Positions 8,701 to 60,541 of a DNA stretch of 64,000 nucleotides are shown piece by piece. Position numbers and translations under genes: made by a program. The stretch is taken from positions 43,276,001 to 43,340,000 of the forward strand of contig JAGIQG010000008.1 in assembly GCA_024679065.1 (NCBI GenBank). The letters are read 5' to 3'. Position 1 is the stretch's first letter; every line of letters starts with the position of its first letter. The notes under the pieces are model-generated. The model was not told the origin of the DNA. It did no database searches and saw only the letters and a program-made list of their open reading frames with translations. Origin of the DNA: Sphyrna mokarran (Eukaryota).

Positions 8701-11700
8701 NNNNNNNNNNNNNNNNNNNNNNNNNNNNNNNNNNNNNNNNNNNNNNNNNNNNNNNNNNNNNNNNNNNNNNNNNNNNNNNNNNNNNNNNNNNNNNNNNNNN
8801 NNNNNNNNNGGGCCAAGCAGATGGCATCTGCTGTGGATCTGTTGCTGTGGTAGAAGAACTGTAATGGATCCAGGCAGACTGGGAGGCAGGAATTGATTTG
8901 TGCCATGACTATCCTTTCAAATGATTTCATAATGATGGATGTCAAAGCTACTGGATGATGGCCACTAAGACATGCTGCTTGGCTTTTCTTTGGCACCAGG
9001 ATGATAGTCATCTTCTTGAAGCAGGTAGGGACCTCAGATTTATGTAAAGCGAGGTGGAAAATGTCTGCAGATTCCCCTGCCACCTGGTCATGCAGGATTT
9101 GAACGCTTTTCCGGGGTAGTTGCTTTCCATGGCTTGACTTTGAAGAAGGCTGCTGTTACGTCAGCAATGGTAGTCTCAAATACAGGTTCATCTGAGGCTT
9201 CCAGGGTGGAGGTTGTGCTCTCATTGACCTCTTGCTTAAAATGGCCATAGAATGTATTGATCTCATTGGGGAGGGGTGCATTGGAGCCGCTGATTTTATC
9301 TGCCTTCATCTTAAACCCTGTTATGTCTTGTGGACCTTGTCATAGTGAGCTGGAGTCCGTGTGGTTAGCCTGGGACTCTAGCTTGGTCCGGTACACATAC
9401 CAGAAAGCTGTGCAGACCAGGTCATTGAGTGTCTTTAAGACAGACAGATAGGTTCATGATTAATAAAGGGATCCAGAGTTATGGAGAAAAGACAGGAGAA
9501 TGGGGATGAGAAACGTATCAGCCACGATTGAATGGCGGAGCAGACTCGATGGGCCGAATGGCCTAATTTTGCTCCTATGTCTTATGGTCTTATGGTCATA
9601 TGATTGTCTGGTTTACTCTTAGGGCTGCTTGCAGTGGACAGTGCATATTGTTGTCCTTGTCCCAATAAGAAATAATTAAAAACTACCTGCACCCTCCAAG
9701 GATATTTTAGAGCATGTCAATATATTAACAAAGATGATGGGCCATATTTAATGGAGGTGACGAGAGACAGCAAGAGCCCTATACTATCTCTTGGAGAGAA
9801 GGTCCACCTAATTAAGTGCCTATCAGGAATAGCAGTTGGACTTCCCCAGAATCAAGGACCTCAGCGATGGAAATCCTGCCCACCAAACTTTTATGGCAAG
9901 CCAAAGGCCAACAACTCCAATGAACAGCAGCCGAGAAACAGTGACTGCTGCCAGTATGACATCTACTAAGTCCCAGGATCATCGTTGCATTCCAGGCCAG
10001 CATTAATTGTCCATTTAAGGGTGTCAGTTGGTGGCAAGGTGGGAAAACCATCCACAGTTTTCCCACCTCAAGCTTAGTTGGAATGGAGATGAGAAGGCAA
10101 CATAGTCTCCATCTGTCATTCTCCAGCTTGATTTAATGCACCCCCCCCCCCATCTTTAAACTTGCCATTTGGAAATGCATTAACTTCTGCCCGACTGTCC
10201 AAGAGCTGTTGTCGGGATCTTGGTCAACATCAGTACTTCTCTCTCTCAAATTATGACCAAGTTGCTTAGTAATGACAAAGAGAGAGATGTATTCTCATTG
10301 CTGTGTTTTCTCTTCAGTATTTATCTCAACATCTGATAAGTTGCACAATGAAGCTAATTGCAACAAAAAAATTATCCTAATGCCCAAATTTGAGTTTGAG
10401 ATAAGTGAAAGGGATAAATACAGTAGAATTCCACCATTTATGGAGGTTATGTTCACGTGCATTCTCTCAAAGAATAGAATTGCAAATGGTGAAGGTATTT
10501 AATAATGGGCACCAATTAGATAATTTTGAGATGCCAAACCCTATGTTTTGAGTAAATTCAAAATGATTTTACTGGAGAAATTGTCTAACAATCCAAGAAA
10601 ACGAGAAGAAATTTTCACTGAGAGGCAATAAAAACTATGAGTATACAGTAAAATTTTGTCAGCACAAACTATTGAACAGTAGTTAAGAATGGAGGTAGAG
10701 GGAATGGGTGAAATGACTGATGTAGATATTGGATGAAATGAACAATGTTATGCTTTCAATATTGTAAAGTTCTCAGTAAAGAGTAAAACATTGTCAGTCG
10801 GTCTATTAAAGGCAATGTTTCTTTCCATGTTTGTATCATGATGTGTCGCCAGTTTTCTTCAGCTGATCTTATGAGATCTGCCATTGTCTAGTTGTAAAAT
10901 GTTTCTTTTAGGATTTTCTTCCTGCTCCTGTTTACTTTCCTTTAATTTAACCAGTTTGGTCAGTTCTTCTATCTCTTGCTGAGATTGACCCCATTTCTTC
11001 ATCTTATGTACTTCATCTGTGGTTAGGTCTTCAAATCCATCCTCTCCAACTTGTTTTGGCAAGCCAATAATCCTGGCCACTTCAGCACCTTCATTGGGAA
11101 TCTGTGAAATCATAGAACATAGAACATTACAGCACAGAACAGGCCCTTCGGCCTTCGATGTTGCGCCGACCAATATAAAAAGCAATGCCCTCCAAACTAA
11201 ACCATTCCCTTCTCTTCCATATACTTATCAACTAACCTCTTAAACGCCACCAAACTTGGCGCATCTACAACTGCTGCAGGCAGGGCATTCCACTCCCGAA
11301 CCACCCTTTGGGTAAAGAACCTACCTCTGATATCCGTCCTATAACTATCACCCCTTAATTTAAAGCTGTGTCCCCTCGTGCTAGCTTTTTCCATCCTAGG
11401 AAAAAGGCTATCACTATCCACCCTATCTATACCTCTAATCATCTTATATGTTTCGATTAGGTATTCACAGCTTCAGGCCAAACCTTTTTCCAGCACCCAT
11501 TTATCATTGAAGTTCTAACTCCCATGAGTTCTTAATTATGCCTATTGCTATGAGGACGTTGAACTCTTTCCAGTAATCATACATAGTGGTTGAAAGGTTT
11601 GCTTCCTTGCTTTCATAAGATGAAGGATGTGGCTGAAATTTTGGGTATGGTAAGTCTTGAATAAGGCAGTGATCCTTGGTCTAATTGCTGGCTAAATGAG

Positions 11701-14700: not shown

Positions 14701-17700
14701 TAAACTCAATTTACAACTTCATGTCCTGGCTACTATGGAACATAAAGAGTACAGAGAAGGAAATGGGAGAGTGCAGAATACAGTCATAGCTAGGGTGTAG
14801 AGAAAGATCAGCTTAATGCAAGATAGGTCCATTCAAACATCTGACAGCAGCAAGGAAGAAGTTATTCTTGAGTTGTACATGACCCCAGACTTTTGTATTT
14901 TTTTCCCAATGGAAGAAGGTGGAAGAGAGAATGTCCGGGCTGTGTGGGATCCTTAATTGCTGAGAAGAATGTGTATTGGAGAAGTAACTACTTACTTCAT
15001 CACATCACAAACTAACTCTCCACATACAAGATTATATATGTTGAGACTTGCTGCTAGCCCACCGCCTATATTTATCACTGAGAGAAGATTTAGGTTATGT
15101 TACAGAGCCACTTAACATAAAGGGAGGAATTTTCCACTTCTATCAACAGCTGGAACCAGGCCTGGCTAGGGCACAAACTTTGGCATGCTGGCAAAATTCA
15201 GTTTCCACCAGTTGGAAATTAATTTAGAATTTTGTGCTCCTGACTTTGATGGTGGGTTAAAGGAGAGGCAGGTGTCAGGAACCATATTTGCATCTCATGA
15301 ATGTTCAGAGTGGAATAGTGAAAGACTGTCCCGGGGCAAGGGTTATATGGCTAAGGAGGAGTCAGAGACTGCCCTTGGGCTGAGGCTATTCTGTCAGGTT
15401 TTTTGAACAGACGGCCCTGGGGCTGCGGCCATGCTGTCAGGGGCATATTGAATAGACAGCCCTGGGACAAAGGCTGTACTGTCACAGACATATTGAACAC
15501 ATTGCCCTGGGGCTGAGGCTGTGTTGTCGGGCGTTTTGAACAGACTGTTCTGGGACCATGCTCTTGGCAATGTTTTGAACAGTTTGCTCTGGGGCTGAGG
15601 CCATGCTGTGACAGGCACGTATTGAAATACTATCCTAGACGGGATATATCATCAGGAGCGTATCAAACAGGTTATGCAGGGCATGCATGTCTTTGTCCTG
15701 GTCGGACAGAGAAGACCTGTCTAGGTCGTGATGATCACTATGCAGGGCATGATCAGTCAGCTAAAAATTTGGATCTTAGGAGTTAAAGTATAGCACTGTG
15801 AGGCAGATGGCATAGTCATGGTTAGGGGAGGCATCTGTAACCTGTATGTCAGTAGTTGAAAAGTCATGAGGGGTTATTGGATGGTCTCATTGCGGGGGCA
15901 GGGTGTACAGCTGGAAAGCCAGGGTGAAATGTGGCTTTGAGAAAAGGAAGAGTCAATTTGACAAAGATTGTAGGGACATCAACATTAATGGATTGGGAGT
16001 TAGAGGAGAACAAGAATATCAACATGCACAACGATGGAGTCCAGAATAATAGGAGTGGGAATTAGGAGACTGTGACTATGGAGAAGGATGGAAGGAAGTT
16101 AATAGGTAATGGGGGAGGGCGGATCTGGCCACGTTCATGAATCCAATTAGCACAATGCTTGCCTTCAGTCATCAGTGACACAGTTAGAAAAACAAGTTTG
16201 AAAAAAATTATATACAGGCGAGTCTCAGGTGTGTGAGTAGAGTTGTATGCGACAATTTGGGCAGATTGAAGGGCACTCTGTAATTATGAAAAGCATACTG
16301 GACAGATGAGTGTCATGCACAATGAATAAGCATTGTTCCTTTTTTAATGGTGCACATTCAGACAATGATCCATTAAGTTCTCAGTGCTGCACAGCATATG
16401 GCCTTAATTGTTATCTGATTCTCATAGACATATGTCAAAATGGATGCAGGCTTTAAGAGTCAAAGCCCACACCACATCTACCATTAGGGACAGCATGGCC
16501 CCTCAAAGCCTCCATCTTCCCAGTGCCCAAGGTTTTGGAACTCTTCCCTAAACCACTTCACCTCTTCTTCCATAATTTAAAATCCATCTTAAAATTTAGC
16601 TCCTTGCTCAAGCTTTTGATCACTGATTCTAATATCTTCTTATCTGACACTGTGTCAAATTCTGTTTGATAATTCTCCTTGAGATATTTTACAACATGAA
16701 GAATTGTTAAATAAATGCAAGTTTTTATTGTTGAATCAGAAAATGGTGGGTTCAAACCCCACTCTTGAGAGTGGATTACATAATTTAGACTAATGCCTCA
16801 GTAATTCTTGGGAAGTCCTGTGCTATCAGAGTTTCAGCCTCATGTGGCCACAAAAAAGGTCCCATGGGAATATTTGAAGAAGAGAAGAGGAGTTTTCACC
16901 ATGTCCTGGCCAAAATTTATCCCTCAGATTTGTATGAGAAAGAATGAAAAGTGATAATCCATTCATTTATTTCATGCTGTTAGTGAAGCTTTGCTGTGCA
17001 TAATTAGTTTGTCACAAATTGCTATAGTTATTCCACTTCAGAAGTACTTCACTGACTGTGAAAAGTCTTGTGATACCCTGAAGTAGTGAAACACATTATA
17101 AAAATGCAAATCTTTCTTACGATTACACAAGAAAAGAGAGAATCAAGCCAAATAACAGGAGATGTGCTTGATGAATGGGAAACAATTGAAACATTGTTTG
17201 CTATTAGCTCTGAACCAACTAGCATGTCTTTGCAATGGCAGCTAATATTTCTTGGCCTGCCTTTCAATTATTGTTATTATAATGTCATAGAGTATCCATC
17301 ATATCCTGTTAATTTGGTTAAAACTATCAATGGGCTTCTTCACCCTATCCTTTATCTTTTACCCTGACAATTTTAAGACCCCAGTCGGAGCAGGCATAGA
17401 ATTGGGGATTTGTAGAATTTCACACCGCCAACAGGAATGCTTAACTCCACCTCACTTCAGGCCATTTTCCTGGAGGTGGGTTGGGGTGATAGGGAACAAT
17501 AGGGTTACCTGCCTGTTAGTGGTGGGTAGCCAATTCAACTGATTAAAGGCCTATTTGAGTCTAGTGCCAGAGACCAACTGAATTTTCCAGTCAGCCTTCA
17601 GGCCCCAGAGGGGAACAGGGTAGTTCCCGGGAATTGACCTTCTGGTGGCAGATGTAGATGGCAGACTCCAGGCTTCAGCAGCTGCCACCATGTTTGAGCT

Positions 17701-23700: not shown

Positions 23701-26700
23701 ACAGCCATTGGATGCACAGTCGAAGGGCAGTCGAACAGCGTCACCAGCAAAACAGTCACCAACTGGACCCATGAGTAGGTCTCCTTCTGAAACTGGACGT
23801 CCCAAAACTTCATCTTCTATCCACAGTGAAGGCAAGGTAATATCAAAAGCTATTTATTGTTCTGCTAAAGTCATTGGACCAGAAATTCACAATGGCACAT
23901 CTTGCAGCAAACAGTGTTAACTGGGCTTTCTAACCTCTCCATTCATAAACCAGTACTTTTTCAGTAGCAATTGATCTCTTACAACTTAATGATGGAGAAC
24001 ACCATTGAAGCATCATTATTTTTCCAGCAATTTTTGGCTGATTTTGTTTCTTTTAAATAACTCTGTTGTTCTTCATCTAGGTCTTTAGTTAATTATGTCG
24101 CTTTCTGTAATTTTTGTAATTGCAGTCCGCATGCAATGCAGAAGTATTTGATAAAAAGCTGGAAGACTAATTTCGAGAAAAGCTACATTGGGAATTTTGT
24201 AAATCAGTCATTGGACTAGAAAAGAATGTCAACTACTAACAAAACATTGATGGAAATCATTTGCAAGTGATGAACTTGCTTTATTAATCAAGCTCCAAAT
24301 TAACTGGGATGCTCATTTGGCATCCCAACCAATAAATTGACAGCCTTGCTCCAGAGGTAGAAGCTGAGGTCCAGGCTAAGGTGAGAACCCTGGCTCTCAC
24401 CACACATGCTGCTTGGTACCCTGAGTTTTTATCAGCCAGTTTCTATGATTGGGTTACAATACACAGAGGGATCTCTTCAGTACTTACATCTGATGCTTGA
24501 TAGTCCAACAAATGTGGTGGTAAGCAATTCTCTAGCCTAAAGAGCACCCACCCATCTTGAGCAGCCAGACTACACAAGAATTATAAATAGAAAAATGTAA
24601 GTAAAAGCAAATTACTGCAGATGCTGGAATCTGAGACATAAACAGAAAATGTTTTAAAATCTCAAGAGGTGATGCTATCTGTGGAGAGAGAATATCTAAT
24701 CTTTTGATTCTGGATGACTCTCCATTAGAGTTGAAGACAAAGGAAATTAGACAGGATTTAAATTGTGAGGATGGGGTGGGGTATTAATTGACAAAGATGT
24801 CATAGACAAAAAGACAAAGGGACTGATTTATTTGATAGTAAACTCACAAGTTTTCGACCCTCTGGCCTTCGTCAGGTGAATGAGGTGTTCTGGTCTCAAA
24901 CAGCACACATAATAGCACAGACTGTTTACAGATTACTGATTAGAATGCAAATCTTTACACCTAACCTGGTTTTCAAGTCTTAAAGTGGCTGATAATGTGA
25001 GTGGAAGGAGCACTGAACACAAGTTAAAGAGATGTGTGTTGTCTCCAGAGAGCACAGTAAATGAGGTTTTTTGCTAACCCAGGCAAGTCATGGGGGTTAC
25101 AGATAGTGTGACATGAAGCCAAGATCCCTGTTAAGGTCGTCCTCATGTGTGCGTAACTTGGCTATTAGAGTCTGCTCAGCAGCTCTGCACTGTCATGTGT
25201 CGTGAAAGCCCCCTTGAAGAACGTTTACCCAAAGGTCGGAGGCCGAATGCCTGTGACTGCTGAAGTGTTCGCCAACAGGAAGGGAACAGTTTTGCCTGGT
25301 GATTGTCAAGTGATGTTCATTCGTCTGCTGTCGTAGTGTCTGTATGGTCTCCCCAATGTACCATGCTTCGGGACACCCTTTCTTGCAACATATTAGGTAG
25401 ACAACGTTGGTCGAGTTGCAAAAGTATGTACCATGTACCTGGTGGAGGGTATTCTCACGTGTGATCATGCAATCCATGTCAATGATCCGGCATTGCAGAG
25501 GTTGCTGTGGCAGGGTTGTGTGTTATTGTGGTCCAGTACTTCCCCGGAGCGGCGAAGCTACGACATCTTCTCCGGAGTCTTCAACATATCATTGATGAAG
25601 ATGAATATCTCGCCAGGGCCATCTCCACACCCCCACTTCTTGCCTTCAGACAACCACACAACCTCAAACAGATCATTGTTCGCAGCAAACTACCCAGCCT
25701 TCAGGAGAACAGTGACCACAATACCACACAACCCTGCCACAGCAACTTCTGCAAGGCATGCTGGATCATAGACATGGACGACATCATCAAACGTGAGAAT
25801 ACCATTCACCAGGTACACAGTACATACTCTTGCAACTCGGCCAATGTTGTCTACCTAATATATTGCAAGAAAGGATGTCCCGAAGCATGGTACATTGGGG
25901 AGACCATGCAGACACTATGACAGCGGATGAATGAGCATCGCTCAACAATCACCAGGCAAAACAGTTCCCTTCCTGTGGGAGAACACTTCAGCAGTCATGG
26001 GCATTCGGCCTCCGACCTTCGGGTAAATGTTCTTCAAGGGGGCCTTCACAACACATGACAGCGCAGAGTCGCTGAGCAGAGACTGATAGCCAAGTTCCAC
26101 ACACACGAGGACGCTCTTAACAGGGATCTTGGCTTCATGTCACACTATCTGTAACCCCCATGACTTGCCTGGGTTAGCAAAAAACCTCACTTACTGTGCT
26201 GTCTGTAGACAATACACATCTCTCTAACCTCAGTGCTCAGTGTTCCTTTGTTAGCCACTTTAAGACTTGAATAGCAGGTTAGGTGTAAAGATTTGCATTC
26301 TAATCAGTAATCTGTAAACTGTCTGTGCTATTATGTGTGCTGTTTGAGACCAGAACACCTCATTCATCTGACGAAGGCCAGAGGGTCGAAAACTTGTGAG
26401 TTTGCTATCAAATAAATCGGTTGGATTTAAACCTGGTGTTGTCAGACTTCTTACTGTTAATTAAGAGATCAGAATGTGTAAATAGCAGAATAAAGTAAAC
26501 TGAGTTTCCAAGGATAACCTAAGTCATGTAACAGATAGTGGGGTGGGGAAGTGGGGGTGATAGGGGAACAAGATGGAAAGCAAGAGTTTTTTAAAAAATC
26601 AATGGAAGAAATGAAAATGAAAACTATAATTAAAAATATTTTAAAATGTATAAATAAATAAATAAGATGAAAAGAAATGAAATAAAATAGCTGGAATGGA

Positions 26701-29700
26701 GATGGAGGAGAAATTCATGAAGTTGTTGAATTCAATGTTCAGTCTAGAGGGCTGTAAAGTGTCTAACTGGAAGCTGATGCGCTGTTCCTCCAGTTTGTGT
26801 TGGGCTTCAGTGGAACATTGCAACAGGCCAAGGACAGACATGTGGACAGGAGAGCAGGATGATGTGTTGAAATGGCAAACAACAGAGAGACTGGGTCCTG
26901 CTTGTGGATGGACCAAAGGTGCTCTGCCAAGAGCACTCCGATGTAGAGTAGACGAGATTAGGAACTGTGAATGCAATAGATTAGATTAAAGGAGGTGCAA
27001 ATGAATTGCTGCTTCACCTGAAAAGAGTGTTGGGGCCTTAAGACGGTGAAAAGGGAGGAGGCAAAGGGACAGGTGTTGCATTTTCAGCAGTTGTATGAGA
27101 AGGTGGACAGTAGATAAGAAGTTGGGTGTGATGGACAAATGGACCATAGTTTTCCGAAAGGAACGGGGGAAGATGTATTTGGTGAGGGCATTACGCTGGA
27201 GTTGGTAGAAATGGCAGCGGATTATCCTTTGAATGCAGAGGCTGGGGGATTAAAAGTGAGAACAAGGGGATCTTAGCTGATTCTGTGAGGGAGAGAAGGT
27301 GGTGAGAGCAGTGGCTTGGAAGATAGTTTGGGCATGGTTGAGAATCCCGTCAACAAGAAACAGATACTTTGCTTACTATGTAATTGTGAAGAAAACTAAA
27401 AGGCACAAATTTAGAAATCAAAACATCAAATCTTACATTTTTAATGTCTGTCACTAATTTTCTTTTATTGAATGTTTTCTTGCATGCCAAATACATGATT
27501 TGTTTTATTTTAATCTATTATTACAGTAATCTGAACAAGCTTGTGAACCATTTTTCATATAAGATGTACGTTTGTTCCCCAACCATGGCATGGCCTAAAA
27601 CTTCTTGGTGCAAGTTTTCTCACTGTGGATTGACAGGGTGTCTCCTTGCACCTCATTAACACTTTATTTTGCGTTTTGCAGCCAGCGGAGTTACCACAAC
27701 AACCAACCTCGGTGACACCATCAACAAGCTGTGAGGTGATTGAGCAAAAGCTGAAGAAGATTGTTTCCAAGCTCTGGAAAGAAATAGAGAAGAATTGCAA
27801 AGAGAAGGACACTGAAAAACAGGGTGAAATTGATGCCAAAGATTTTCAGGGTTTGTCATCTTTGCTAATAGCCTGTTGTTAATCACAATAATATTGCCTC
27901 ATTCACACCGCTCACCTGAAACATAACGGTCTTCTCCAGTGTGGGAATTAGTTTTGTGAAATCAGACTTTGCCCATTTACATTTCAAACATGGGGCAGAC
28001 ATGGGTTGAGTCCTCATTTGTAAGAGTTGAGAACAGACTGGTTGATCAGGTACCCCATCTTAATCATTTCTATTAGTCACTGAAATGGTGGAATCAAGGA
28101 AGGAATTCTTAGAAACGAAGGGGACATAATAAATATTTTGGATTCACCACTTTGTTCAGCAATTCTCAAATAAGAGTTTCTTTAATTTTGAAGCTGAAAT
28201 TCTCTGTAGTTTCTAGTTTAAATTATAGAAGAAGTTCCACCTCTTGGAGCAAGCCGATTTGACACTATTTTAATCATTGGGTCACTATCTGTAGTATTTG
28301 CTAATCTTTATAAAGAGTTGATTGAAAAGTAAGACACTTTGTCAACTTCCTTTCTCTTTCTACACCTGAGTGATCGGTTCCCAGCTCCTTCAGACTAACA
28401 CGGAGTATTTTCTTAACTTTGGTGCTTCTCAATGTTTGCAGACCAAAGTCAACATAATGTTTAAATTTCCCATGCTGCTACCAGGTGATCTGAAATTGTA
28501 CCTTTTTAATGTTCTGCGACTTACACCTTGTTATTTCTATCATTAAGTGATTCTGCGCAAACAAGAAAATACTTGAGAGTTGAAAGTGAAACTTATGCAA
28601 ATCTATCATCAAAGTTATACTGGATAATCAGGAGAAACCCTTAAAATTTCCTTCCTAAATTACTAACTCTGAGTCTAATCATCATAACACAGCTCACCGC
28701 TGTGTTCTGACAGTATGAACTAGTTTTAGAGTGATCAGTGATTGTAACACAAATTTTTTCAATGTTACACTCAACAGTCAGAGGGAATTAGCACCAGATA
28801 GAGCAGGGGAAAAAAAACATTAGTGGAGAGGTGATCTTACCAAAAAGAATTCTAAGTGATAAACAAGACTGAAAATGAGAGAGAATTGTGCTGTTTATTT
28901 GGGTGAGTTAAAAATCAAATCTTAACTCAACTTGAAGAAAAGGTGAAGCAAGATATGTTTCCTGCCAGCAGGGGGAGGAAGAGGAGCCTGAGCTTACCCA
29001 AAAGCTAGCAGATTGCAGTAGAGGATGCCATTGAACTCAGATATCTGTCAGGTACCTTTACCCAACTGCCACTGACCTCCTCAAACAATTGCTCCTCCCC
29101 CGACTATCATGGGGCAGTGTGGTCAATTTCCACCCTTCCCCCTAATATGACTCATTGACCCCCTGCCCCAGCACGGTCCTGCCGAACACCCCCCCCCCCA
29201 CCCTCCTCTATGCCGCCAATCCCAGTTGCATCATTACCCTGTCCCTTTCAGGCCCCACTGCCTCAAACTGCATTGCCAGGTGCTCAGTGGGTACTGCCAG
29301 TATGCCAGACTGGCAGTGCCAGGATGCCCAGTAGGCAGTGCCAGAGTACCAAGCTAGCATTGCCAGAGGCTACATCCCATGCCCAACCTCTCAGGGTGGC
29401 CTCAATGGGTCTTTGATCATACTGGCAAAGCCATCACCAAAGGTCCCGTTGATGGAGACCATATGTGTCCCTTGCCGGTGACGACCTTGACCGGCAATGT
29501 TGCTAAGGCCAGTGAGCCCAAATAATTGCATCCCAGGGCTCACTATTTCATTAAAAATGAGATTCAAAATATATTTACATAGTATAATCAGCCTTGCACC
29601 AGAAAAGAGCACAAGGCTGACATTGATGTTTATCCAGTGCTGGTAAGATCACAAGAGGTGTGAAATTGGTTGCGAACTTGATTTTTTTTGGCTCTCTTGT

Positions 29701-32700
29701 GATCTTACTGGCTCACCCCACCTATTGCCTGGCATGATGAGAAGGTATTGTATTTGCTTGAAAGTACATTTTCTCTAAGCTAACAAAACTGTATAGCTTT
29801 TGAAACTAAATATAAGCAATTACATACTATTCCACCTTTTAGTGAACAAAACCATATTCACATCAGTTTTGTTTGCAAAATTGGTGTAGTTAGGGATGGG
29901 CAACAAACGTTGGTCATGTTGGTTTCACATGCATACTGAGAAAAAAAATTTTAAACATGTGGCTTTACCAGAAATCTTTGTTTTAATACCTACATATTTT
30001 TGGCTAATGGATAGATAATGTTAGATCTTTTTCATATGTGCACATATACATGACAACAGCCCAGGTAGTGATTTCAGAGTGATATACATGCATGTCCACA
30101 TCCGTGTGCAAAATCAGATGCTATCTCCTCCAGTGGTACTCTCTGCTCCTAGAGGTTGGCTGCTGACTGGGATGTGCAATGGCAGTCAATCCCCAGGGTA
30201 GCACCAGGAAAAAAGTAGAAACTAGAAGTGATGCTGATGAATAACAGAATTGGGAGAGCGTTAAGACCAGCACTAGCATAATGGGAAGAGTGAGGATGGA
30301 GATCATCAGCTTGAACTGAGCCAGCGAGGAGGATATAGCTTGGTATACATATACGAAATATGCAAAAATGAAAACGTATGTAGGAAAATAGGAAGAATGA
30401 ATAAAGTGCATAGAAAATGATATAGTTTGGTCAAGTAAATGGGGAAAAAAGCAGATGGAACATAACGTGCACAACTGTAAGGTTACCCAAACAGTTTGGA
30501 AGTAGAAAGAATGTAGATATTCCTGGACTACAAAGAGGTCTGCAAAATGCTTGGGATAGAGGGTTGTGTGTTGTTCCTATATATGAATCTGGAAGTATAT
30601 TATGGAGTTAACATAAGAAAATAGGGAGATGAATTAAATATTGACTTCATTGCAAGAGGGATGCAATATAATTATAGGCAACCTATATCAAACTGTACAT
30701 AATATTGATTGCAGCTCAGGTCAAAAATGTAATAAACTTTAGAATAGTTACTTAAGGAAAAATATATCTAAATTGGAAACTGGGCAATTTCCAGTCGGCT
30801 GATTTCTAAATTGAATGTATTAACGTAAGCGCTCTGTTCACTACTCATTTGATGTTAGCATGGAAGGTATTACTGTCCATTATGCTATTTATGCTGCATC
30901 TTAATCATTTCCAATGCATTTCAGTGTTTTGCTTGTGCCCTATATTCTGGATTTGTCTCTTCAGGTATTTATTGGATTGTGTTGATTGAATGTTGACATT
31001 AAACCTACCTGTTCTGTGGTTTCAGGCAGTGGAACAAAGATAGGCTGGTAGATTGGGCAGATAGATGGCAAATGGAATTTAATCTGGATAAATGCGAGGT
31101 GATGCATTTTGGCTGGAATAATGTAGAGGGGAGTTATAGGATAAAAGGTAAAACTATCCGGAGTATAGAGATGCAGAGAGACCTGGGGGTGCAGGTTCAC
31201 AAGTCTCTGAAGGTGTCAGTACAGGTGGAAAAAGTGATAAAGAAAGCATATGGTATGTTAGCCTTCATAGGAAGGGGTACAGAATACAAGAGTAGGAGTT
31301 TGATGTTGCAAGTGTATAGAACGTTGGTTAGGCCTCACTTGGAGTACTGCGTCCAGTTCTGGTCGCCGTACTACCGGAAGGATGTGGAGGCCCTGGAGAC
31401 AGTGCAGAGGAGATTTACCAGGATGCTGCCTGGTATGGAAGGGCTGTCTTACGAGGAAAGATTGAACGCACTGGGGTTGTTTTCCCTTGAAAGACGTCGG
31501 CTGAGAGGGGATTTATTAGAGGTATATAAGATTATGAGGGGTATAGATAGAGTAAATGGTGGTAAGCTTTTTCCACCATTAGAAATGGATAGAATGAGGG
31601 GTCATGGCCTTAGGGTGAGGGGGGCTATGTATAAGACGAATATTAGAGGGCATTTTTTCACACAAAGGGTAGTGGGGGTGTGGAATGCGCTACTGAGTAA
31701 GGTGGTGGGAGCAGGCACACTAGGGTTGTTTAAGGGTCTCTTGGACAGCCACATGAGCGGTCTGCAGATAGAGGGATATAGGAGGACTGTTTAAATACTT
31801 TATTTGTTTCCACAGGTTATTCGGTCCACCTTGTTGACCAACAAGGTGCATGCATTCGGCAGGTCGTGCGAGGGCTGCTCTTGGATGTTACTTCAGGAGT
31901 GGCCTAGTGCTTCATGTCGTTAGTGTATGCTTAAACTGGACCATCAGATGGGCAACATGACAGCTCAGAGACTATCGCTGCTGCTGTGCAGACACATGGA
32001 TTTGGGCCTGTGTCTGCGGGAGTTTGCGCATTCTCCCAGTGGTTGCGTGGGTTTTCTCCGGGTGCTCCGGTTTCCTCCCACATCCCAAAAATGTGCTCTT
32101 AGGCTGATTGGGTAACAAATTGTCCCTATATTGGTCCCTATATGTCATTAAGATGTTAGGACGGTGGCGCGGGCTCGTTGGGCCGAAGGGCCTGTTTCCT
32201 GTGCTGTGTTGTTTTTTGTTCTTTTGGTAGCACAAATAAACAAGAAGATGAATGGCTAGGGACAGGAGGCAGAAGATGAGCATTAGGGGTGAAATAGTGC
32301 AATGGTTGATGGTGGGGCAATGGGGTGGAGAGGGTGACATATTGAAGCTGATATTTTAGTAACAGAGAGCTGAATCTTCTGATCCTGCTGACATGATCTT
32401 CCAGTTTTACCGATGGCAGATGTCCTGGCAGCATGGCCAGCCAGCAATGCCAAATGCCATTGATGTTGGCAGGACTGGAAAACACGCAGCAGAAAATCCC
32501 ACCCGGAGAGCATGAACATGAATCCACAATATCTGCAATGTCTCTTCAGGTTACATCATGATGACACCCTGCTCTTCAGTGTAACTTCATGCCATAGGCC
32601 TGACCTTCTGTTGTCAGATTTTCTGGGATATGTCTGCCAGTTAGAATTTTCTAGATTGGCATTATGTTTATGGGACTATAACTATATTATTTACTGGATT

Positions 32701-40636: not shown

Positions 40637-60541
<19,905 letters not shown>

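What the first reader, a model, noticed from the sequence alone, without database searches (positions are those of the whole stretch)
24821..26456. 1.6-kb palindromic Penelope element with a hammerhead motif on each strand, inside an EFCAB6 intron
Seen: ~710-bp arms (24821-25533 and ~25714-26420) around a ~180-bp spacer. Each arm has a GIY-YIG remnant and an intact CUGACGA...GAAA hammerhead core (26362-26401 on +, 24842-24881 on -). Known: Penelope-like elements form inverted pseudo-LTRs and carry minimal type-I hammerheads thought to cleave as dimers. Inference: EFCAB6 pre-mRNA would contain both a ~700-bp dsRNA hairpin (possible ADAR or Dicer substrate) and a sense hammerhead whose folding competes with that hairpin. 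That would be a potential self-cleavage versus silencing switch in a host intron.
Basis: partly seen in the sequence, partly recalled or inferred. Interest (0 to 1): 0.7.

Follow-up and report, generated by a model that had tools for sequence, protein, structure and literature searches.

The report
Decayed mirror-image Penelope insertion, shark intron
This is a real but ordinary, decaying head-to-head insertion of a very common Penelope-type jumping gene in a shark gene's intron; its self-cutting RNA motif is damaged and predicted to stay zipped inside a long hairpin, so it is likely not a switch.

Summary
In detail: two inverted arms (24822-25533, 25714-26421; 640 of 702 columns identical), each with a broken endonuclease remnant and a hammerhead core, inside an EFCAB6 intron (23837-27681). 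It is one 5'-truncated insertion of a Neptune-like Penelope family with thousands of copies here; 39 of 74 other sampled loci share the head-to-head layout, which is in print for this class, as are opposite-strand hammerhead pairs, ADAR editing of Penelope and siRNA from its inverted repeats. The switch is not supported: forcing the hammerhead fold costs 74 kcal/mol against the hairpin, the stem III palindrome needed for dimer cleavage is broken in both arms (73 of 75 other arms keep the base), and only one copy is sense. This copy is older and more damaged than most: no tail, no target duplication, some host bases missing. Editing and small RNA could not be tested. By-product: 36 of 37 complete sister palindromes carry the long tail on exactly one arm, 18 on the longer, 18 on the shorter, which fits priming from both target nicks. 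The scan noted such palindromes before, in this and other genomes.

The parts
24822..25533 (-). Left arm: inverted, 5'-truncated copy of the element's 3' 708 nt; ends about 35 nt short of the usual short end and lacks the long tail
25526..26456 (+). Right arm plus spacer: one continuous 5'-truncated copy of the element (end of RT-thumb region, linker, endonuclease, 3' pLTR part), ending at the family's short end
   Evidence: 90% to a near-full-length copy over 926 nt
25526..25533 (.). Head-to-head junction; the two arms' alignments to a family copy overlap by 8 nt (microhomology, imperfect)
25534..25713 (+). 180-nt spacer: not foreign DNA but the extra 5' reach of the right arm; forms the hairpin loop
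25534..26154 (+). ORF remnant with C-X4-C-X2-C linker, [13 protein letters not shown] endonuclease core; stops at 25918-25920 and 26056-26058
26362..26401 (+). Sense minimal type-I hammerhead motif: core intact, stem III AACU (family AGCU), closing pair of stem I changed from C-G to U-G
24842..24881 (-). Antisense copy of the hammerhead motif (same AACU change); in EFCAB6 pre-mRNA it is the complement that pairs with the sense motif
23837..27681 (+). EFCAB6 intron (GT...AG, 3,845 nt) holding the insertion
24600..24821 (-). Left part of an older repeat, likely a distant Penelope-like family, into which the element inserted
26457..27360 (-). Right part of the same older repeat, with a decayed endonuclease-like C-terminus

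Best explanation
This is a dead, 5'-truncated head-to-head insertion of an abundant shark Penelope-like retrotransposon (likely Neptune clade) nested in an older repeat within an EFCAB6 intron, and its pre-mRNA copy is predicted to fold into a ~700-bp hairpin that buries a damaged hammerhead, so it likely neither cleaves nor switches. Shown: the two arms, the broken reading frame, the host intron, the family size and the frequency of the layout, the stem III change. Inferred: the arms were made during one insertion by two reverse-transcription events that each began at the element's 3' end and were joined at their truncated 5' ends; a later (or integration-linked) deletion removed the left arm's tail, the left target duplication and some tens of host bases; the arms then decayed neutrally, mostly by C>T and G>A. 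Predicted: the hairpin, if it forms before splicing, is an ordinary ADAR substrate like many others in this genome.
For: Family: at least 3,948 and 4,294 candidate copies for two parts of the element; near-full-length copies carry RVT_1 (E 2e-9). Layout: 37 of 74 other loci called head-to-head by script, 39 after re-reading three by hand; junction points differ from copy to copy, so the palindrome is remade at each insertion. Among the first 100 of 347 exact hammerhead matches listed, 6 pairs lie minus-then-plus within 1 kb and none plus-then-minus (counted by eye). Damage: no target duplication here, whereas 20 of 38 pairs have one of 12-16 nt and 0 of 60 random controls reach 8 nt; host bases missing at the site 22-53 in six of nine host-repeat copies, 2 in one, two misaligned. 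Arm-specific changes 23 and 37, of which 14 and 19 are C>T or G>A, A>G 2 and 2. Arm divergence 7.5% against 0.5-8.0% in 15 other pairs. Folding. Literature passages: inverted 5'-truncated copy with one-sided tail (PMC8557442; PMC3846280); opposite-strand hammerhead pairs, no cleavage by the monomer tested (PMC4209133); a lizard element's hammerhead needs the element's protein and is dispensable for insertion in vitro (PMC11167929).
Against: Both arms keep the catalytic core and both stems, while 18 of 77 sampled arms have a broken core; that is unremarkable for two arms but is not decay. The 56-nt motif on its own folds into stems I and II with probabilities 0.53 and 0.64. Equilibrium folding ignores RNA-binding proteins, ADAR unwinding and fast splicing. 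No raw RNA reads were available, so absence of cleavage, editing or small RNA is not shown. Presence of the insertion in related species was not resolved. Loci were the best hits to this copy, and palindromes are hit twice, so the 39 of 74 is not a genome-wide rate. Clade rests on the linker motif, not on an RT tree.
Confidence: 0.88

Rival explanations
1. One reading: the sense hammerhead and the hairpin are alternative folds of EFCAB6 pre-mRNA, choosing between self-cleavage and silencing.
For: The motif is sense to EFCAB6 and the core is intact; alone it folds weakly into stems I and II. Editing could in principle loosen the duplex (inference).
Against: 74 kcal/mol gap and stem probabilities under 1e-18; the motif lies in the longest unbroken helix, 101 bp; stem III broken; the only other sense core of this kind found in the window is at 59461, beyond the last mapped exon; even in 161 nt of its own context the stems do not form; minimal hammerheads were reported weak even as dimers (PMC4209133).
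Confidence: 0.02
2. The hairpin has a real effect on the host (hyper-editing, nuclear retention, altered splicing or endo-siRNA that silences the family), without any ribozyme role.
For: Predicted helices of 101, 75 and 67 bp; it is the only strong inverted repeat among two found in the mapped gene span. Elephant shark brain has about 200,000 hyper-edited sites, mostly in repeats, and lizard Penelope is heavily edited (PMC5625713 passages). Penelope siRNAs map to inverted regions in transgenic flies (PMC3681739 passages).
Against: Nothing singles this locus out among many similar ones; arms have drifted 9% apart with no excess of shared changes (7 shared, 1 rare), so pairing is not being maintained. 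No RNA data tested. Being edited is likely; mattering to the host is a separate claim.
Confidence: 0.08
3. The palindrome is itself a mobile unit (MITE-like or retrozyme-like) copied as a whole.
For: One other locus (L002) matches across the junction region at 90%.
Against: L002's junction differs by about 20 nt on one arm; all sampled palindromes have different break points; no tandem hammerhead array here.
Confidence: 0.01
4. Assembly artefact (fold-back chimera).
For: Inverted repeats trouble assemblies (PMC8557442 passage); no read spanning the locus was seen.
Against: Arms differ at 62 positions plus gaps with a neutral decay pattern; flanks are two halves of one older repeat.
Confidence: 0.01

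Closest known systems
Insertions of endonuclease-positive Penelope-like elements with an inverted 5'-truncated copy and one-sided 30-40 bp tail (Craig et al. 2021, PMC8557442; Arkhipova et al. 2013, PMC3846280; Schostak et al. 2008, PMC2377424; passages read)
   Same: Head-to-head inverted 5'-truncated arms, hammerhead near each 3' end; sister copies have the one-sided tail and 12-16-nt target duplications.
   Different: This copy has lost tail and target duplication, has no tandem part and no RT.
Neptune/Nematis clades of Penelope-like elements (PMC8557442 passages)
   Same: [quoted passage not shown]
   Different: No RT tree was built, so Neptune versus Nematis is not decided by test; Neptune is the one reported in vertebrates (bioRxiv 10.64898/2026.07.22.740005 passage).
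Minimal type-I hammerheads (min-HHR) of metazoan Penelope-like elements (Cervera and de la Pena 2014, PMC4209133; main text read)
   Same: CUGAnGA and GAAA boxes, extra base after position 9, G10.1-C11.1 pair, no stable stem III, pairs on opposite strands.
   Different: Positions 15.2-16.2 are not palindromic here (A-C), and the motif is predicted to be paired with its own antisense copy.
ADAR hyper-editing of inverted repeats in pre-mRNA, including lizard Penelope (Porath et al. 2017, PMC5625713; passages read)
   Same: Long near-perfect intramolecular duplex from a repeat.
   Different: Editing at this locus is untested.

Membership tests
Endonuclease-positive Penelope-like element | Single ORF with RT followed by a C-terminal GIY-YIG endonuclease | tested here: met
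   Met by the family: 625-aa frame in L103 with RVT_1 E 2e-9; homologue P0005 has RVT_1 and a weak GIY-YIG hit. The window copy is 5'-truncated and has no RT.
Endonuclease-positive Penelope-like element | CCHH motif with two cysteines between GIY and YIG | tested here: met
   [19 protein letters not shown] followed by two conserved histidines in the right arm; definition from PMC8557442.
Endonuclease-positive Penelope-like element | Inverted 5'-truncated copy adjacent to the 5' end | tested here: met
Endonuclease-positive Penelope-like element | Optional 30-40 bp tail at one end and target-site duplication | tested here: not met
   Absent in this copy; present in sisters (one tail in 36 of 37; duplication of 12-16 nt in 20 of 38 pairs). 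The feature is optional in print and its loss here goes with missing host bases.
Neptune/Nematis clades | CX2-5CxxC linker before the endonuclease | tested here: met
   CHSNFCKAC in the right arm; definition.
Neptune clade | Placement by RT phylogeny | not tested
Minimal type-I hammerhead | Core boxes, stems I and II, extra base after 9, G10.1-C11.1 | tested here: met
   stem I co-varies between subfamilies (TTCAC/GTGAG in 13 arms, TTTGC/GCAGA in 6, TTTGC/GCGGA in 4).
Minimal type-I hammerhead | Palindromic 15.2-16.2 allowing a dimer helix III | tested here: not met
   AACU in both arms; 55 of 59 arms with an intact core have the palindrome; exact 20-mers in the genome: 347 palindromic, 20 of this variant.
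Minimal type-I hammerhead | Self-cleavage | not testable with these tools
   Needs a bench assay.
Minimal type-I hammerhead | Match to an Rfam hammerhead model | tested here: not met
   0 matches at E<=5; no family-typical copy was scanned as a control, so this says little.
RNA conformational switch | Two folds of comparable energy | tested here: not met
   74 kcal/mol apart.
RNA conformational switch | Conservation at the orthologous site | tested here: inconclusive
   Contigs of a relative cover both unique flanks but stop inside the repeats.
Non-LTR retrozyme | Tandem, same-strand hammerhead-bearing units | tested here: not met
   One motif per strand, inverted.

The most novel reading that the evidence does not exclude
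Not this locus but its family: the mirror-image insertions record how Penelope elements integrate. In 36 of 37 complete sister palindromes exactly one arm has the long tail, none has two, and the tail sits on the longer arm 18 times and on the shorter arm 18 times. A simple snap-back of one cDNA cannot give the shorter (copied) arm a tail that the longer arm lacks. The pattern is what twin priming would leave: the protein nicks both strands 12-16 nt apart, each nick primes its own cDNA, one from each of the two internal start sites, and the truncated cDNAs are joined head to head. This links the unexplained inverted layout to the two-strand, two-start-site activity reported in vitro for a lizard element, and is testable with that assay.
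Probability: 0.35. Interest if true: 0.45.

Novelty: new member of a known kind. Interest (0 to 1): 0.13.

Why it matters
For the locus itself, little: it is one of many such fossils, and more damaged than most. It does show that shark introns hold many ready-made long hairpins from Penelope insertions, a likely large source of ADAR substrates, as reported for lizard. The tally of tails across sister copies is a cheap natural data set on an open question, how Penelope elements make their inverted arms.

Tried and rejected
Rfam scan: no match. Pfam on the remnants: no family. RNA evidence: no RNA holder listed; only contigs were available, which cannot show editing, ends or strand, and thousands of other family copies pile on the element, so the A>G counts there were not used. 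Presence of the insertion in relatives: unresolved. Idea that AACU marks an active sub-lineage or arm-to-arm conversion: rejected as unsupported; none of the 18 other exact AACU matches is paired with a second one, the partner arm reads AGCU in 5 of 5 readable cases, and about one coincident shared change is expected from 23 and 37 arm-specific changes in 702 columns (my arithmetic; 1 rare shared change seen). ADAR imprint in the DNA arms: none (A>G 2 and 2). A mobile palindromic unit: rejected. First palindrome tally used a poor reference and was replaced; L020 was mis-paired and L081 and L087 were missed, corrected; L051 and L055 were left out of the tail count because one end runs off the locus; duplicates L031, L047, L092, L096, L097 were dropped before counting. 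Protein search with the host repeat's frame found nothing; its Penelope-like nature rests on weak local matches. Lunse et al. 2016 was not held: only its title was seen. Paper searches: none listed a paper on this locus; 'Penelope' + 'twin priming' + 'inverted' gave 2 papers, seen as listings only, neither about Penelope by title or abstract start; subscription journals are not covered and no supplements were read, so the twin-priming idea may be in print.

Full report
Observation. The inverted repeat is there. Arms 24822-25533 and 25714-26421 align over 718 columns with 640 of 702 ungapped columns identical, around a 180-nt spacer. The right-hand copy runs from 25526 to 26456 without a break, so the spacer is simply the part of the element that the right arm has and the left arm lacks. 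Both arms point their 3' ends outward. Hammerhead motifs lie at 26362-26401 (+) and 24842-24881 (-), each with a 6-bp stem I, CUGACGA, one extra A, a 4-bp stem II and GAAA. Rfam found nothing at E<=5.

Host gene. The exon at 27682 finds four proteins, all named EFCAB6, from sharks and rays. A 1,532-aa homologue maps to nine exons on the + strand between 2561 and 36334. The element lies in the GT-AG intron 23837-27681. Contigs from two runs guessed to be RNA, from one study of a related species, join the flanking exons. The genome is therefore likely a shark's (inference from the hits).

What the element is. The right-arm frame finds 33 homologues, up to 86% identical, several with RVT_1. Longer copies fetched from the genome hold frames up to 625 aa with RVT_1 at E 2e-9. 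[quoted passage not shown] Both arms are broken by stops, the left also by a 4-nt deletion. Two parts of the element gave 3,948 and 4,294 candidates in the genome, lower bounds.

How common the layout is. I examined 74 other distinct loci: 29 and 28 best hits to the two queries (20 of them re-fetched at 6.6 kb) and 17 carrying the AACU variant. A script called 37 head-to-head; re-reading three loci raised this to 39. The sample favours palindromes, which offer two targets, so the true share of insertions is lower, perhaps a quarter to a third (inference). Break points differ in every case. Of the first 100 listed among 347 exact hammerhead matches, six pairs are minus-then-plus within 1 kb and none the other way (by eye). 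Two more, older palindromes of related families lie in this same window. The layout is in print: an inverted 5'-truncated copy next to the 5' end, with a 30-40-bp tail at one end (PMC8557442, passages; PMC3846280, passages; PMC2377424, passages), and minimal hammerheads 100-700 bp apart on opposite strands (PMC4209133, parts 1-2 of 4). Eleven earlier notes of this scan hold the same words, two of the eight shown from this genome; they are unchecked AI notes and I formed my reading before seeing them.

This copy is a damaged one. Sister copies end either at a short end (equal to 26456) or about 35 nt further on, after a long tail. Of 37 sister palindromes with both outer ends in view, 36 have the long tail on exactly one arm, one has none, none has two (33 by script, three by hand; in three of the 36 the other arm is cut short). 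Here neither arm has it, and the left arm stops 35 nt before even the short end. No target duplication is found, against 12-16 nt in 20 of 38 pairs and none of 8 nt or more in 60 random controls. The flanks are two halves of one older repeat with 4,470 candidates, weakly similar to the Penelope protein (a database search with its frame found nothing). Aligning the flanks to nine copies of it suggests 22-53 missing bases in six, 2 in one, and failed in two. A deletion across the left end explains all three losses (inference). Arm divergence is near the top of the range seen (7.5% against 0.5-8.0% in 15 other pairs), and the changes are mostly C>T and G>A.

The hammerhead. Stem I co-varies between subfamilies, so the motif was under selection in the active elements. 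In this copy stem III reads AACU in both arms; 73 of 75 other arms have G at that place, and exact 20-mers number 347 with G and 20 with A. The self-pairing octamer goes from -6.5 to +2.1 kcal/mol. The sense copy also has U-G instead of C-G at the pair next to the core. The shared change does not show conversion or a special lineage: about one coincidence is expected, and elsewhere the variant is one-armed. In print, the minimal motif tested did not cleave as a monomer and cleaved weakly as dimer or trimer (PMC4209133); the lizard element's motif cleaved only with the element's protein, was not needed for insertion, and no RNA-seq ends mapped to its site (PMC11167929, parts 1-2 of 4).

The switch. 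Folding 24800-26470 gives -1,258 kcal/mol with 663 of 708 right-arm bases paired to the left arm. Every hammerhead base pairs with the left arm at p>=0.997, and forcing stems I and II costs 74 kcal/mol. A transcript cut off just before the motif is already zipped to its last base, and the motif falls in a 101-bp unbroken helix. Alone, the 56-nt motif folds weakly (stem probabilities 0.53, 0.64), and not at all in 161 nt of context. The left-arm motif is antisense in this pre-mRNA and is the blocker, not a dimer partner. These are equilibrium predictions without proteins. They leave no second state within reach, and the ribozyme would be poor even if freed.

The hairpin. It is a plausible ADAR substrate, but that is generic: about 200,000 hyper-edited sites in elephant shark brain, mostly in repeats, and over 40,000 in lizard Penelope (PMC5625713, passages); Penelope siRNAs from inverted regions are reported in flies (PMC3681739, passages). 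I could not test it: no RNA holder was listed and contigs cannot show editing. Whether relatives share the insertion is also open.

By-product. The long tail sits on the longer arm in 18 sister palindromes and on the shorter in 18 (two are near ties). If one cDNA folded back and copied itself, the shorter arm could not carry a tail missing from the longer one, unless the tail were trimmed later. Two cDNAs primed from the two nicks of a staggered cut, one from each internal start site, fit better, and match the both-strand nicking and extension, two start sites and predicted dimer reported in vitro (PMC11167929). An earlier proposal is self-priming on an antisense template (PMC3846280), which my counts do not exclude. 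This is inference from a small, biased sample; my one search for it in print listed two unrelated-looking papers. No supplements were read.

Verdict. Observation confirmed; interpretation partly supported; a new copy of a known kind of insertion. Interest 0.13.

Noticed in passing
window 58348-59589: A second, older head-to-head palindrome of a related family (73-83% identity), with long tail on the right arm and a sense hammerhead core with intact AGCU at 59461; it lies beyond the last mapped EFCAB6 exon.
   Followed up: partly
window about 42300-42492: A third, tiny head-to-head stub of two element ends, long tail on the right, hammerhead cores decayed.
   Followed up: partly
window 24600-24821 and 26457-27360: The element sits inside an older, abundant repeat on the minus strand with weak similarity to the Penelope protein: one Penelope-like element nested in another.
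   Followed up: partly
L044:557-1804: Palindrome with arms 99.5% identical but 4.5% from their nearest sampled neighbours (17 shared differences): a young insertion from an unsampled source copy, or arm-to-arm conversion.
   Followed up: no
L055:960-2134: Two copies of different subfamilies joined tail to tail, the only such case among 75 loci.
   Followed up: no
proteins P0008 and P0031: Shark proteins named NOXP20-like and septin 5a isoform X1 contain this family's linker/endonuclease region (82-83% identity): exon capture or annotation error.
   Followed up: no
window 15358-15617: Five loose copies of a 45-nt unit in an EFCAB6 intron.
   Followed up: no
window 11282-11449 and 31524-31691: A weak (71%) inverted pair of another repeat 20 kb apart within the gene span.
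   Followed up: no
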